Positions 873 to 18,754 of a stretch of 64,000 bases of DNA are shown one piece after another; the first letter of the stretch is position 1, and each line of letters starts with the position of its first letter. A program made the translations under genes and the position numbers. The notes under the pieces were generated by a model. That model saw nothing but the letters and a program-made list of their open reading frames with translations, did no database searches and was not told the origin of the DNA. Source of the stretch: a virus (taxonomy: Duplodnaviria > Caudoviricetes); the IMG/VR virus record IMGVR_UViG_3300036982_000556, positions 3,498 through 67,497 of that record; one strand, 5' to 3'.

Positions 873-1423
873 GTTGGTCAGTGGAACCGATGTTCTGAAT
901 AAGAGCTGCAAGTTTCTATCCCTGTGACGCAACATCGGGCTGCCTTGCTCCCCGACCGAATACGCTTCGGTGATTACGCTCTTGACGACGCTTTCACTTG
1001 ACTCTGTGTGCCTGTCTGTCTCCAGACGATTCCACTGACCAACCACTCAAGTTGCTGCGGAGGTGCCGTACTAGGGATGTGTTGGGAGAGCAAGGCTTAC
1101 GTCTTTCGACTACTTGGTCACCTCAATCGTCTTGGGTCCGATACCGCAAGTTTCAACTTGAGTCATTCTAGTTACTGTTGAGGAAGCCGTACTGAGGATG
1201 TCTTAGGAGAGGAAGGCTTACACCCGGAGGCTACTTCATGCACTTCAATCGTCTTCTGGTATCAAACAGAATCTAACTAGCACTCGCTCTTTCTGTTGCT
1301 GAGTGTGCAACCGTCACATTTCCTTTTAGGTGGTGTGTCACCCGGAACCCGCTACACGCTTTGTGCGTCTTGCTGCGATTCGCCCCCGGTTGTGTCTCCG
1401 GTTCGTACTGCTCACTTCCTGAT
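872..1423 (-). ncRNA. Candidate structured ncRNA B with tandem ~120-nt domains
   Basis: Follows the promoter at 1425-1481. Has a 15-bp inverted repeat (872-886/1030-1044) and two homologous domains with GAAA and UCCG tetraloops at the same position. Confidence 0.65.
1046..1280 (-). repeat. Tandem imperfect direct repeat, period ~120 nt
   Basis: AAGACGATTGA.GTG...AAGTA[stem-loop]GTAAGCCTT.CTCTCC.AA.ACATCC..AGTACGGC occurs twice. Confidence 0.9.
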
Positions 1424-1424
1424 A

Positions 1425-1481
1425 TAAAGACCGTATCACGATCTACTACAGAAGCACAACCCCAAATAGGATATTTCTTTG
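1425..1481 (-). promoter_or_regulatory. Repeated phage promoter element
   Basis: AAAGAAATATC...GTAGTAGATCGTGA-TACGGT. Confidence 0.6.
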
Positions 1482-1545
1482 TGACACTTGTCACACGGCA
1501 AATCAGAACATGTGTTCGGTCGGCCCAGTGTGGCGGCGCTGCCCG

Positions 1546-3156
1546 TCACTTCTTCTTCCCCCGTTCCTCTTTCGCCTTCGCCAAACGGTACTCAGCAATC
1601 TCCGAAACCCAACGCTCGTTCCGGTCGATCCCCACAAACCCCATGCCCTCCTCAACAGCCGCAACACCCGTCGTCCCCGAACCACAGAACGGATCAAGCA
1701 CAACACCGCCCGGAGGAGTCACCAACCTGACAAGCCACTTCATCAACTCAACAGGGCGGACACGAGGATGATCGTTCTTCACGCCGAGAGGCAAACCAAC
1801 ATTGCGTTCAGCTTGCCTCGCAGGAGGAGTCACAAAGAACCGTGCGACATCACCAATCTCCTCCGCCGCTTCCTCATCAACAACAACCGTTGCGGGCCAC
1901 CGACCCAAGGTCGTTTTGCCAGTCACGACACGAGTCTTAGAAACCTCAGCACCATGACCACCCGCAATAGAATCCGAGGTGTTCCGATAAGAAGCCATCG
2001 CATCACGCTCACCTGACTCCACACGGCAAGCGTCAATGTTCATCGCACCTGTACCCCACTTCATCACAGACTCCGCAGCACTGCCCTTGTGAGGCTTCAC
2101 ACGGAACAACAGGATCGGTTTCCACGCAGGCTTCAACGCAGTAGACCACCCGTACCACGGGTTGTCCTCACCATGATTCTCAAGCCACGACTCGCGTTGC
2201 TCATCAGTCATACCGCTGATCTGCTTGAAGTACGGGTCGCCATCACCGCCAGACCTACGGTCCACCTGCATCCCAATATCTATCCCCGTTGGCATACCCG
2301 TCCCGAATAGCCACATCAACGTGTCACGCAACTCCAAGCCACCGTCCTCAGCGGCCACAGCAACCTTGTGCCAAGTCGTAGTCCCCGCTAACACAGCAAC
2401 ATAGCCGCCGGGTTTTACAACACGTTTGATCTCAGACCAGAAGTCAGGACCGGGAACCCACCTCCACCAATTATCACCAAGGTCAGCTTCGACCATCCGC
2501 TCACCCGCAGGTTTGATCCCGCCAAGAGGATCAGTCACACAAGAATCGAACGTGTTATCGGCATACTCAGCCAACAGTTCTAAACAGTTCCCGACAAACA
2601 ACTCAGACGTTGCACCCGGAGTAACACCTTCAACCTTCGAGACTGTCATCTCCTGCTCAGGAACTTCGACTTCTTTCACCTCAACAGGTTTCTTTGTCTC
2701 TGCCGATTCTTCTAACAACGCTCCCGCTGAAGCTGAAGCAAGTTGGAGTAACGCAGTGATCTCATCACCGGCGAACCCCGCATCAAGAAGCAACGAGTTA
2801 TCTGTTTCAGATACCTCAGCTAGAAGGGAAGCCAACTCAGCGTTGTCGTACTTCCCGTTATCGTGAGTCCGGTTGTCGGCAAGTGAACGGGCCACCGCAG
2901 TTTCCCGGTCGTCGTCCGTATACAGCACAGCGATCTCAGTCCACCCGAGTTGGATCGCAGCCTTATGGGTGTGGTTGCCAATCAGGATCTCCCCCGTGGC
3001 CTGCTGAACGACTATCGGCCTGTGCTGACCGAACCGTTCCAACGACTTCGCAACAGAGTCAACATCACCCCTGCGAGGGTTGCCCTTCATCTGCTGAACG
3101 TCCCCTATGGGGACAACCAGTGGCCTTAGACCGTCAAGGATATTAGAAGTCATCAC
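1546..3156 (-). CDS. ParB-like nuclease domain fused to an N4/N6 DNA methyltransferase
   Basis: N-terminal GNPRRGD...IVV...GNHT...LADNRT; VTDP catalytic-like motif; VLDPFCGSGTT SAM-binding motif. Confidence 0.85.
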   Translation of the reverse strand: MMTSNILDGLRPLVVPIGDVQQMKGNPRRGDVDSVAKSLERFGQHRPIVVQQATGEILIGNHTHKAAIQLGWTEIAVLYTDDDRETAVARSLADNRTHDNGKYDNAELASLLAEVSETDNSLLLDAGFAGDEITALLQLASASAGALLEESAETKKPVEVKEVEVPEQEMTVSKVEGVTPGATSELFVGNCLELLAEYADNTFDSCVTDPLGGIKPAGERMVEADLGDNWWRWVPGPDFWSEIKRVVKPGGYVAVLAGTTTWHKVAVAAEDGGLELRDTLMWLFGTGMPTGIDIGMQVDRRSGGDGDPYFKQISGMTDEQRESWLENHGEDNPWYGWSTALKPAWKPILLFRVKPHKGSAAESVMKWGTGAMNIDACRVESGERDAMASYRNTSDSIAGGHGAEVSKTRVVTGKTTLGRWPATVVVDEEAAEEIGDVARFFVTPPARQAERNVGLPLGVKNDHPRVRPVELMKWLVRLVTPPGGVVLDPFCGSGTTGVAAVEEGMGFVGIDRNERWVSEIAEYRLAKAKEERGKKK

Positions 3157-3174
3157 ACGCCTTTCAAGGGTGTT

Positions 3175-3208
3175 GGTTGCGGGGGCAGACTACCCGCCCC
3201 CGCAACCG
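3175..3208. terminator. GC-rich hairpin after the DUF932-like gene
   Basis: ggttgcgggggc/gcccccgcaacc 12-bp stem. Confidence 0.55.
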
Positions 3209-17384: not shown

Positions 17385-17773
17385 GCAACCGGGTGGAGTT
17401 CAAGGTTGTCGGGTTGACGTTCATGGAACGCTACCCACAGAACTTGCAGACTATCGAAGCGTTCGTTGTTGAAGCTCAAACGAAACAGCTTGGATGGAAC
17501 GGTGAAGTGGTTGATGAACCTGTTGAGGTTGTGTTGATCCGTAACCCCGGAAACGAGTTTGACGAGAACGCTGTTGAGGTTCACATTCCTATGTTGGGGA
17601 GAAGGTCAATGATCGGCCATGTTCCTCGTGACCTCGCAGCGAAACTCGCCCCGTCACTTGATCGTGGTGACTTGTGGAAATGCGAAGTTGAAACCGTGTT
17701 GGTTTCGGCGGAGAACCCGGACCTACCGGGAATCCAAATTGTGATTGAGCGTGCGACACAAGTCGCCGCGTAA
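17381..17773 (+). CDS. HIRAN domain protein
   Basis: FKVVG..F...LIRNPGNEFDENAVEV...IGHVPRDLA. Confidence 0.85.
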   Translation: MSNRVEFKVVGLTFMERYPQNLQTIEAFVVEAQTKQLGWNGEVVDEPVEVVLIRNPGNEFDENAVEVHIPMLGRRSMIGHVPRDLAAKLAPSLDRGDLWKCEVETVLVSAENPDLPGIQIVIERATQVAA

Positions 17774-17788
17774 CAAGAGAGAGAGATC

Positions 17789-18286
17789 ATGGCAGCAGGT
17801 AATGAAATCACATTGGTAGGAAACGTCACTTCTGACCCGGAGTTGCAGATCACCCCGTCGGGTGTTTCTGTCGCCCGGTTCGGGTTGGCTTGGAACAGGC
17901 GCTTCCAGAAAGATGGCGAGTGGCAAGAGGAACCACACTTCTTTGACATCACTTGTTGGAAGGAAACTGCGGAGAACGTGGTGGAGTCGTTCCGTAAGGG
18001 TGATCGTGTTCTTGTCTCTGGTCGTCTTGAGCATTCCCGTTGGGAAGATAAGAAGACGGGTGAGAAGCGTTCCAAGGTTGGTGTCGTGGCTGATGAGGTT
18101 GCGGGGACTACTCGTTGGTCAACGGTTGAGATGACTCGTGTTGAGCAGGCGGCTCGGCCTGAGCGTGGCCGCAGTGATAGTGGGCGAGATTACGACCGTG
18201 GCGAGGTTCAGCGTATCGAAAGCAAGCCTGCTCCTCGTAAGCGTGCGCCTCGTGAGGAGTCGTATTCGGATGAGTCCCCGTTCTGA
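17789..18286 (+). CDS. ssb: Single-stranded DNA-binding protein
   Basis: ITLVGNVTSDPEL...KGDRVLVSGRLE; acidic tail ending SDESPF. Confidence 0.95.
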   Translation: MAAGNEITLVGNVTSDPELQITPSGVSVARFGLAWNRRFQKDGEWQEEPHFFDITCWKETAENVVESFRKGDRVLVSGRLEHSRWEDKKTGEKRSKVGVVADEVAGTTRWSTVEMTRVEQAARPERGRSDSGRDYDRGEVQRIESKPAPRKRAPREESYSDESPF

Positions 18287-18330
18287 ACGGGCGGCTCGCC
18301 ACACTGGGCTAGATCGAACACTTGTTCCCT

Positions 18331-18403
18331 AAAAAGAAATATCAAAGATTCTTTGTTATTGACTTGACGTAATGTAGTTCCATCGACTACATTCATGGGG
18401 GTA
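18331..18403 (+). promoter_or_regulatory. Repeated promoter, ncRNA-associated subtype
   Basis: TTGACG-18-TACATT then CATGGGGGTAGG. Confidence 0.8.
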
Positions 18404-18754
18404 GGGAAGTACAACCGAAACGAACCGGCGCAACCGGGGGTCAAGGCGGGGGGACAACCGTAGCAAAAGGGTTCCGACAAGCACCAAGGTCAACGGCCTT
18501 CTAGTGGACATCAGACACTCAGCAGGGATACGGCAACGTATCTCCAACGCAAGCCAGCACGCACTAGCGGGAACACGACACTTGATGGCAGAAGCAACGC
18601 ATGAGCAATCGTGACGTAAGAGCTACCGAAAGTAGTTCTGAATGTGAGGTGTGCCTGAGTTCGTGGATTGCGCATCTAGTAGCAAAAGCGCAGTAAGGGC
18701 CTTGGTGAATCAAACTTGTCGGAACCGAATTACGGTCCCCCCGCCTTTTCGGTT
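18399..18754 (+). ncRNA. Candidate structured ncRNA E (~355 nt)
   Basis: Four nested 5'/3' helices of 8, 11, 12 and 10 bp; gatacg-GCAA-cgtatc hairpin. Confidence 0.75.

What the first reader, a model, noticed from the sequence alone, without database searches (positions are those of the whole stretch)
1360..18490. ncRNA candidates B, C and E share a 5' sequence motif
Seen: C begins TACAACCTAAAGAACCGG..CAAC..GGGG..GGGTCCG.CACC (7783-7845). E begins TACAACCGAAACGAACCGG..CAACCGGGGG..GGGTTCCG..CACC (18410-18485). B (minus strand) begins TACGAACCGG..CAACCGGGGG..GGGTTCCG..CACC (~1408-1330). The same motifs occur in the same order at the same distance from the promoter, while the downstream bodies differ. 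Inference: paralogous RNAs with a shared handle (protein-binding or processing domain) and variable cargo, the architecture of guide or scaffold RNAs.
Basis: partly seen in the sequence, partly recalled or inferred. Interest (0 to 1): 0.72.

Follow-up and report, generated by a model that had tools for sequence, protein, structure and literature searches.

The report
Shared 5' stem-loop on phage ncRNAs
Three separately promoted, strongly folded non-coding RNAs of an uncultivated actinophage-like virus start with the same short hairpin and a second short sequence block; the shared part is real and lies in the RNA rather than the promoter, but nothing shows that these are guide RNAs and their function is unknown.

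Summary
B (minus strand, 1404-1384), C (7794-7819) and E (18422-18439) each carry GAA-CCGG-[loop of 5-14 nt]-(C/U)CGG-GG about 18-20 nt after the inferred transcription start. This is followed by GGGW(W)CCG..CAC(C).

- **Hairpin:** the pattern occurs 3 times against 0.08 expected. A covariance model scores the three sites at 34-45 bits and the next site at 13.
- **Second block:** it occurs 5 times in the window, and 3 of these are the B, C and E sites.
- **Relatives:** the hairpin arms are invariant in 14 distinct copies of four RNA types in about 8 related virus contigs.
- **More distant relatives:** related CCGG-AGAGACAA-CCGG hairpins with covarying outer pairs open ORF-free units in phages whose large terminase is about 76% identical.
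- **Not part of the promoter:** C orthologues carry either promoter class, and mRNAs behind the same promoter cassettes lack the motif. "TACAACC.AAA" belongs to one promoter class's leader only.

The RNAs are modular. Whole helix-closed inserts come and go, tetraloops swap with compensating stem changes, and modules are shared between loci. In E the motif region is the 5' strand of a long helix that closes the RNA (z = -7.9).

No Rfam family matches. There is no repeat array, no effector gene and no antisense target, so "shared handle, variable body" is supported and "guide RNA" is not. The scan noted the parent ncRNA suite on this same window only. Function is unknown.

The parts
1384..1404 (-). 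P1 hairpin of RNA B: GAA-CCGG-AGACACAA-CCGG-GG
   Evidence: 45 bits. Pair probability 0.91-0.98 in the nascent 66 nt. Kept in the alifold consensus of 5 orthologues.
7794..7819 (+). P1 hairpin of RNA C: GAA-CCGG-[14-nt loop]-UCGG-GG. Orthologues have 5-nt loops and CCGG/CCGG arms.
   Evidence: (34 bits)
18422..18439 (+). P1 hairpin of RNA E: GAA-CCGG-CGCAA-CCGG-GG
   Evidence: 36 bits. Pair probability 0.94-0.95 in the full-length fold. Present in the alifold consensus.
1332..1350 (-). Second block of B: GGGTTCCG-GGTGACA-CACC
   Evidence: In the B consensus fold, UUCC pairs with GGAA and GGGUG with CACCU, both locally.
7833..7845 (+). Second block of C: GGGTCCG-CA-CACC
   Evidence: Predicted as AGGGUC/GACUCU or as loop plus arm of a GCGG/CCGC hairpin.
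18469..18485 (+). Second block of E: GGGTTCCG-ACAAG-CACC, the 5' strand of the long closing helix
18698..18754 (+). 3' strand of the helix that closes E; pairs with 18413-18491 and is followed by a U-run
   Evidence: The sense fold is -144.6 kcal/mol (z = -7.9); the antisense fold is -132.4 kcal/mol (z = -5.1).
873..1424 (-). RNA B (~550 nt, ends inferred): 5' domain, two tandem ~120-nt modules, then a helix-closed 3' module
7772..8268 (+). RNA C (~500 nt, ends inferred), converging on the large terminase gene terL (8274-9845, minus strand)
18399..18758 (+). RNA E (~360 nt, ends inferred), downstream of the single-strand binding protein gene
7738..7766 (+). Promoter of C (TTGACA-17-TATCTT), class-1 cassette
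18364..18393 (+). Promoter of E (TTGACG-18-TACATT), class-1 cassette
1430..1459 (-). Inferred promoter of B (TTGTGC-18-TACGGT). It differs from both cassette classes; B orthologues use class 2.
   Evidence: Read; inference only.
12552..12569 (+). Hairpin inside RNA D with the B-type octaloop on an unrelated stem (GCCUG-AGAGACAA-CAGGC)

Best explanation
The motif is an RNA-level 5' module. It consists of a short stem-loop, P1 (GAA-CCGG-loop-CCGG-GG), followed at a variable distance by GGGW(W)CCG..CAC(C). Three independent, promoter-driven, terminator-ended, highly structured non-coding RNAs of this virus share it. So do their orthologues and at least one further RNA type in a small clade of related uncultivated phages.

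**Shown.**
- The module is separate from the promoter cassette.
- P1 is predicted to form as soon as it is transcribed, except in the window's own C copy, whose loop is enlarged (pair probability about 0.05).
- P1 sits as the first branch beside the helix that closes the whole RNA (E, C) or its 5' domain (B).
- The bodies behind it are mosaics of exchangeable helix-closed modules.

**Inferred.**
- The module is a common handle that marks these transcripts for one shared partner. Most likely this is a host or phage RNA-binding protein that reads the hairpin and the GGGWYCCG block. Alternatively, it anchors folding of the closing helix.
- Its identity between loci also lets RNA bodies be exchanged by recombination.
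- It is not a guide-RNA handle.
For: **Non-chance.**

**Conservation.** The arms are invariant and the loops variable in 14 distinct copies of 4 RNA types. In relatives whose large terminase is ~76% identical, CCGG-AGAGACAA-CCGG hairpins again open ORF-free promoter units. Their outer pairs covary, and the same octaloop appears on unrelated stems. The covariation score is 0.268 against 0.073 for shuffles (1 of 500 reached it), but the stems were partly selected for pairing.

**Independence from the promoter.** C has class-1 promoters in the window and L045, and class-2 promoters in L081, L118 and L128. mRNAs behind both classes lack the motif.

**Non-coding.**
- There is no conserved reading frame; the motif lies in different frames in C and E.
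- Class-2 ncRNA copies have lost the ATG that sits at the start site in the mRNA copies.
- Orthologues differ by whole inserts of 40-300 nt placed in loops or between helices.
- GAAA and UUCG tetraloops swap with a compensating stem change.

**Structure.** E folds with z = -7.9 and its sense strand is 12 kcal/mol more stable than the antisense. Changes in orthologues are mostly G-U compatible. P1 pair probability in nascent RNA is 0.9 or higher for B, E and the C orthologue in L045. The consensus folds keep P1 next to a closing helix in B, C and E.

**Mosaicism.** An identical 22-nt P1 precedes different bodies in the B RNA of L195 and the F RNA of L020/L121. A B module occurs inside the C RNA of L118. 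A and C share a 3' frame and terminator.
Against: - No transcript, end-mapping or binding data exist, and the host is unknown.
- The four core P1 pairs never covary within the close clade, so pairing there rests on variable loop length and on the more distant hairpins.
- Full-length MFE folds of B and C replace P1 with long-range pairings.
- The second block has no consistent partner or context.
- RNAs A and D of the same phage lack P1 at their 5' ends, so it is not needed for every ncRNA here.
- No candidate RNA-binding protein was found among the ~30 ORFs scanned.
- Comparative depth is small: about 8 close contigs, mostly 94-99% identical within a type.
Confidence: 0.5

Rival explanations
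1. Recombination linker only. The conserved hairpin, like the promoter cassettes, is mainly a patch of homology at which RNA or gene modules are exchanged, in the manner of the PeSL promoter/stem-loop cassettes of T4-type phages. It has no function of its own in the RNA.
For: - About ten promoter cassettes of two classes lie in the window.
- The slots are variable: E is absent after the single-strand binding protein gene in L159-L162, and the C slot holds an mRNA in L120/L122.
- The same 22-nt P1 precedes different bodies.
- PeSL precedent: PMC2839356, PMC4122927.
Against: - The loop varies in length and sequence while the arms and the GAA/GG flanks stay fixed. Selection for plain DNA homology would not produce this.
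- Related hairpins with covarying outer pairs persist in phages whose large terminase is only 76% identical.
- The second block recurs at variable distance.
Confidence: 0.12
2. Promoter-proximal antitermination or anti-Rho signal (like lambda nut, HK022 put or the rrn leader) that lets RNA polymerase transcribe long untranslated RNA.
For: - The same hairpin lies at a fixed distance after several promoters of one phage.
- The RNAs are long, untranslated and rich in A/C linkers, so they are plausible Rho targets (established knowledge, not tested here).
Against: - C and E end at terminators facing convergent genes, so nothing downstream needs read-through.
- The longest ncRNAs, A (~1.55 kb) and D (~0.9 kb), lack P1.
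- The loops are not conserved between types, unlike boxB.
- No boxA-like element was recognised.
Confidence: 0.08
3. Primer or R-loop RNAs of replication origins, as in the RNA-based origins of cluster A mycobacteriophages, with the G-rich 5' module nucleating the RNA-DNA hybrid.
For: - Actinophage precedent: ~400-500-nt non-coding RNAs required for replication (PMC7157519).
- G runs follow P1 directly.
- E lies beside single-strand binding protein and exonuclease genes.
Against: - Three to six such units per 67-kb genome.
- Modules with tetraloop swaps and helix-closed inserts point to a folded RNA product.
- The units come and go between close relatives, which is unexpected for origins.
- No AT-rich unwinding element was noted.
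Confidence: 0.07
4. DNA-level operator. GAACCGG and CCGGGG are half-sites for a DNA-binding regulator placed just downstream of the start site.
For: Fixed position relative to the promoters, strictly conserved sequence and the CCGG palindrome.
Against: - The spacing between the two arms varies from 5 to 14 bp, which does not fit a dimeric DNA binder.
- The motif is absent from the other copies of the same promoter cassettes.
- More distant copies extend the stem with covarying pairs.
Confidence: 0.06
5. Guide-RNA handle. The 5' module docks an effector, and the variable body base-pairs with a nucleic-acid target.
For: A shared 5' module with variable bodies.
Against: - No repeat array and no effector-like gene next to any unit.
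- The bodies are almost fully self-paired rather than single-stranded.
- No antisense match in the phage beyond terminator stems.
- No Rfam guide or scaffold family matched.
Confidence: 0.04
6. Chance resemblance in G/C-rich leaders.
For: Pairwise local alignment of the 90 nt after the hairpin is not significant. B-C and C-E are not significant over the first ~104 nt either.
Against: (pattern counts, CM score gap, hold-out recurrence) and conservation across four RNA types in relatives.
Confidence: 0.03

Closest known systems
PeSL mobile promoter/stem-loop cassettes of T4-type phages (PMC2839356, PMC4122927)
   Same: Many near-identical copies of a promoter-plus-hairpin regulatory unit flank variable cassettes in one phage genome, and relatives differ by whole cassettes.
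   Different: - In PeSLs the stem-loop is a terminator upstream of the promoter and the cargo is protein genes.
- Here the hairpin lies inside the transcript, the cargo is structured RNA, and the hairpin is independent of promoter class.
Lambda nut (boxA/boxB), HK022 put and rrn leader antitermination sites
   Same: One RNA hairpin motif lies at a similar distance after several promoters of one phage, in front of different downstream sequence.
   Different: There are no downstream genes to read through in C or E, no boxA, the loop sequence is not conserved between types, and no N-like protein was identified.
Large structured phage-associated ncRNAs (GOLLD, ROOL, HEARO) in Rfam
   Same: Promoter-driven RNAs of several hundred nt with many helices, carried by phages, with variable inserts and unknown function.
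   Different: No match to any Rfam 15 model, even at E of 1-10 or less. Here several different RNAs in one genome share only end modules.
Non-coding RNA of the RNA-based replication origins of cluster A mycobacteriophages (PMC7157519)
   Same: An actinophage-borne, promoter-driven ncRNA of ~400-500 nt without a known family.
   Different: That RNA is a single unit beside parABS in temperate phages. Here there are several accessory units with strong evidence of a folded product. No sequence comparison was possible.
phi29 pRNA and Y RNAs (RNAs closed by pairing of their 5' and 3' ends)
   Same: In E, and by prediction in C, the 5' motif region pairs with the 3' end to close the molecule. C lies beside the large terminase gene. 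GGGUCCG faintly recalls the GGUCCGA of Y RNAs; that resemblance comes from memory and is only a lead.
   Different: The Rfam pRNA and Y RNA models give no hit. No Ro/TROVE gene was seen among the ORFs scanned. This is a different phage type.

Membership tests
Any Rfam 15 family (including GOLLD, ROOL, HEARO/omega RNA, pRNA, Y RNA/YrlA, 6S, riboswitches, ribozymes) | Score at or near the family's covariance-model threshold | tested here: not met
   Whole window at gathering score: 0 hits. B, C and E regions at E <= 10: only noise of 11-17 bits. RNA A and the F locus at E <= 1: 0 hits.
CRISPR or OMEGA-type guide RNA | Repeat-spacer array, or an adjacent RNA-guided effector gene | tested here: not met
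   No arrays in 1-20000. The neighbours are a ParB-methyltransferase, the large terminase, a single-strand binding protein, an exonuclease and a HIRAN-domain protein.
CRISPR or OMEGA-type guide RNA | An exposed guide segment complementary to a target | tested here: inconclusive
   No antisense match to the phage itself. The host genome is unknown, so host targets could not be searched.
Lambda-type nut / put antitermination site | Lies upstream of terminators and genes whose expression needs read-through | tested here: not met
   C ends at a bidirectional terminator against the large terminase gene. E ends at a U-run against a convergent operon.
Lambda-type nut / put antitermination site | Conserved boxA or loop sequence read by N or Nus factors | not testable with these tools
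   Loops differ between types. The host and its Nus factors are unknown.
PeSL-like mobile regulatory cassette | Multiple near-identical promoter-plus-hairpin units at the borders of cassettes that differ between close relatives | tested here: inconclusive
   Repeated promoter cassettes and variable slots are present. However, the hairpin travels with the RNA, not with the promoter class.
RNA-based phage replication origin (cluster A type) | The ncRNA is required for autonomous replication and lies next to parABS | not testable with these tools
   Only ParB-like N-terminal domains fused to methyltransferases were found. No functional test is possible.
Structured RNA hairpin (generic) | Base pairs maintained by compensatory change | tested here: inconclusive
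   The core CCGG/CCGG is 100% paired but invariant. In the wider octaloop set, 3 of 6 pairs change on both sides, but those sequences were chosen for having paired flanks.

The most novel reading that the evidence does not exclude
The hairpin plus the GGGWYCCG block is the common docking handle of a recombining family of "cassette RNAs". In this reading the phage keeps five or six promoter-driven RNA scaffolds, about 6% of its genome, and shuffles helix-closed modules among them. The modules might be aptamer-, decoy- or assembly-like. One host or phage protein would read all handle-bearing RNAs. This would be a new class of phage accessory RNA system, for example for anti-defence or host takeover.
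Probability: 0.2. Interest if true: 0.8.

Novelty: new variant of a known kind. Interest (0 to 1): 0.5.

Why it matters
Phage non-coding RNAs are far less charted than phage proteins. This lineage devotes several kilobases to promoter-driven, strongly folded RNAs that match no known family.

A conserved 5' module shared by otherwise unrelated bodies gives a concrete experimental entry point. It can serve as bait for a partner protein, a tag for finding further members, and a site for disrupt-and-restore mutants.

It also shows that RNA genes can evolve by the same cassette shuffling known for phage protein genes. As a single feature it is modest. Its value lies in tying the RNA suite together and in excluding the promoter-artefact and guide-RNA readings.

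Tried and rejected
- **Known RNA families:** Rfam at gathering score and at permissive thresholds gave nothing.
- **Cultured phages:** no DNA similarity in INPHARED. The major capsid protein is only ~33% identical to Arthrobacter, Gordonia and Microbacterium phages.
- **Short-pattern scan of IMG/VR:** it drowned in chance hits inside coding sequence. The long B/E pattern and the A/C 3'-frame pattern hit only the same small clade.
- **Bacterial genomes:** one hit in a Gammaproteobacteria MAG, which I read as a chance match inside likely coding sequence.
- **Metagenome and Logan relatives of the large terminase:** no new close variants. They did yield the distant hairpins.
- **Pairing of GAACC with GGUUC:** possible in B and E, impossible in C, so rejected as a common helix.
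- **A common 3' partner for the second block:** present only in E.
- **Removal of the leader by processing:** disfavoured, because the leader itself pairs in B (G-U to A-U and U-G to C-G changes) and in E.
- **Small leaderless peptide:** the motif lies in different frames in C and E.
- **Kissing partner for the octaloop:** its complement is not enriched.
- **Sarcin-ricin loop resemblance:** AGUACGAACCGGAG in B recalls the loop from memory, but B orthologues do not keep it.
- **Y-RNA lead:** no Rfam Y RNA model hit, and no Ro gene among the ORFs scanned.
- **Protein partners:** PHROGs and Pfam scans of ~30 ORFs found no RNA-binding candidate.

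
Full report
**Context.** The window is positions 3498-67497 of a 67.5-kb IMG/VR virus record. PHROGs hits identify a tailed phage: large terminase, portal, major head protein, head-tail adaptor, minor tail proteins, endolysin, exonuclease, and ParB-like domains fused to DNA methyltransferases. The major capsid protein is ~33% identical to Arthrobacter, Microbacterium and Gordonia phages. There is no DNA similarity to cultured phages. The window has no tRNA and no Rfam hit at gathering score.

- GAACCGG-N(2-16)-YCGGGG occurs exactly three times in the window on both strands, against 0.08 expected; no shuffle of 100 reached 3.
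- A looser pattern also hit four sites that lie within long ORFs and have no promoter nearby, so I take them as chance matches.
- A covariance model of the hairpin, run with filters off, scores the three sites at 45, 36 and 34 bits. The next site scores 13.
- Plain local alignment is weak. Over the first ~104 nt, hairpin included, B-E gives z = 5.3, while B-C and C-E are not significant. The 90 nt behind the hairpin are not significant pairwise.
- The ordered pattern GGGW(W)CCG..CAC occurs only five times in 128,000 positions, and three of these are the B, C and E sites. The same block lies 1 nt after the equivalent hairpin of an independent RNA type in a distant relative. Both blocks are therefore more than chance.

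**Promoter or RNA?** The window holds about ten copies of a promoter cassette in two classes.
- C and E use class 1. B uses a different promoter here, and its orthologues use class 2.
- C orthologues in L081, L118 and L128 use class 2, with a different leader. The C copies in the window and in L045 use class 1.
- mRNAs behind either class lack the motif.
- "TACAACC.AAA" is therefore the leader of one promoter class, shared by C and E for that reason. The RNA-specific module starts at GAACCGG.
- The -10 hexamer ends 25-28 nt before GAACCGG in all three, so the hairpin lies about 18-20 nt after the inferred start.
- In mRNA copies of class 2 an ATG sits at the inferred start (CTACATGACATCGA). 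This suggests leaderless translation. In the ncRNA copies the ATG is ATA or ACA.

**Relatives.** Scans by DNA pattern and by neighbouring proteins found the module only in about eight IMG/VR, JGI or Logan contigs whose large terminase is at least 84% identical.
- There are 14 distinct copies of four RNA types: B, C, E, and F in L020/L121/L273.
- In all of them GAACCGG and CCGGGG are invariant. The loop differs: AGACACAA, ACACACAA and AGAAACAA in B and F; CGCAA in E; AACGA, AAGCA, AACUA or a 14-nt loop in C.
- The four core pairs are always paired but never covary.
- The B RNA of L195 and the F RNA share an identical 22-nt hairpin followed by unrelated bodies.
- In phages whose large terminase is ~76% identical, ORF-free promoter units again begin with CCGG-AGAGACAA-CCGG. 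One unit has two in tandem, and the outer pairs covary.
- The same octaloop, closed by G-C, sits on unrelated stems inside other RNAs, including RNA D of this window at 12552-12569.
- On that set, 3 of 6 pairs change on both sides. The caveat is that I selected loops with paired flanks.

**The RNAs are real and modular.**
- E folds at -144.6 kcal/mol (z = -7.9). Its sense strand is 12 kcal/mol more stable than the antisense.
- The 5' 80 nt of E, including the GGGUUCCG..CACC block, pair with the last 60 nt. P1 projects as a side branch.
- Of ten substitutions in predicted E pairs among three sequences, six give G-U or U-G pairs and four break the pair. A 40-nt insert in one orthologue sits in a hairpin loop.
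- C orthologues share a 5' and a 3' frame. They differ by whole inserts of 200-300 nt, each closed by its own perfect 12-25-bp helix.
- One hairpin in the 3' frame shows a double compensatory change: CCGAGG/CCUCGG against CCGAAA/UUUCGG.
- B contains two tandem ~120-nt modules. In one orthologue GUC-GAAA-GAC becomes GCC-UUCG-GGC.
- A B-type module occurs inside the C RNA of L118.
- RNA A, about 1.55 kb and running beyond the window, shares C's 3' frame and terminator.
- The slots are accessory. E is absent after the single-strand binding protein gene in relatives at 76-83% identity. The C slot holds a protein gene in L120/L122.

**Where the module sits in the folds.**
- P1 has pair probability 0.9 or higher in the nascent RNA of B, E and the C orthologue in L045. 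It remains in full-length E.
- P1 is lost in the MFE folds of full-length B and C. In B, at least, the competing helix conflicts with a hairpin supported by covariation.
- The window's own C copy, with its enlarged loop, has a P1 pair probability of only 0.05 even in the nascent RNA.
- Consensus folds keep P1 in all three types. In B the leader pairs with GGUUGC about 100 nt downstream, with G-U to A-U and U-G to C-G changes, and so closes a 5' domain.
- In C and E, GGCGG lies exactly 5 nt after P1 and pairs with CCGCC near the 3' end. RNA A has neither element.
- The second block has no common context. It is a long-range helix strand in E, local hairpins in B, and loop plus arm of a small hairpin in C.

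**What it most likely is.** I read the motif as a shared RNA-level 5' module of a mosaic family of phage ncRNAs. It is a handle in the loose sense. I put about 0.85 on it being a real RNA-level module, and about 0.3-0.35 on a shared protein reading it. Folding nucleation and recombination homology are other roles, and the three are not mutually exclusive.

The guide-RNA reading fails every test I could run. There is no repeat array, no effector gene, no antisense target in the phage and no Rfam guide family.

Antitermination is unlikely because C and E have nothing downstream to read through, and A and D lack the hairpin. A DNA operator is unlikely because the arm spacing varies from 5 to 14 bp. 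A primer-RNA role has an actinophage precedent (PMC7157519) but fits poorly with several accessory, richly folded units.

**Limits.** The host is unknown, there are no expression data, comparative depth is shallow, and no partner protein was found among the ORFs scanned. Earlier notes of this scan on the same window describe the parent ncRNA suite. Nothing similar was on record for other genomes.

Noticed in passing
window 4898, 16534 (minus strand), 23931, 50059, 63456: Class-2 promoter cassettes place an ATG at the inferred transcription start (CTACATGACATCGA), which suggests leaderless mRNAs. The ncRNA copies of the same cassette in relatives have ATA or ACA at that position.
   Followed up: partly
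window 1-803 (minus strand), continuing to G000:C1 ~2750 (L249): RNA A is about 1.55 kb long. It ends with the same 3' frame (..UAUCGCCU..AAGUCCC..CGCUGAACGAA) and terminator as RNA C, but lacks the P1 hairpin and the CCGCC element.
   Followed up: partly
L121 3060-5100 (minus strand); L273 3482-5680: A relative whose large terminase is 92% identical has about 2 kb without ORFs downstream of that gene. The stretch holds two promoter units: a ~1-kb F RNA with the B-type hairpin, then an A-like RNA.
   Followed up: partly
L195 5170-5200 versus window 1095-1115 (minus strand): A tetraloop swap with a compensating stem change in the second B module: GUC-GAAA-GAC becomes GCC-UUCG-GGC. The last B module is replaced by an unrelated helix-closed module in that relative.
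   Followed up: partly
L271 3679-3723 (minus strand): Two tandem CCGG-AGAGACAA-CCGG hairpins lie a few nt after a TTGACA promoter in a phage whose large terminase is 76% identical. They open a ~400-nt ORF-free unit of a further type.
   Followed up: partly
L272 2470-2600: The F-type homologue contains a run of GCAGUAAGUC-like repeats (..GCAGUAAGCC, GCAGUAAGUCGG, GCAGUAAGUCGGG, AAUAAGUCCC, GCAGUAAGUCCC..). This is a short tandem motif inside the RNA.
   Followed up: no
window 17369-17773 (+) and 3212-4189 (-): A HIRAN-domain protein lies just upstream of the single-strand binding protein gene. There is also a DUF932 protein. Neither is an obvious RNA partner.
   Followed up: no
window 7864-7892 / 8082-8110: A 29-nt long-range helix (86% complementary) closes the module of C that is common to all orthologues.
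   Followed up: partly
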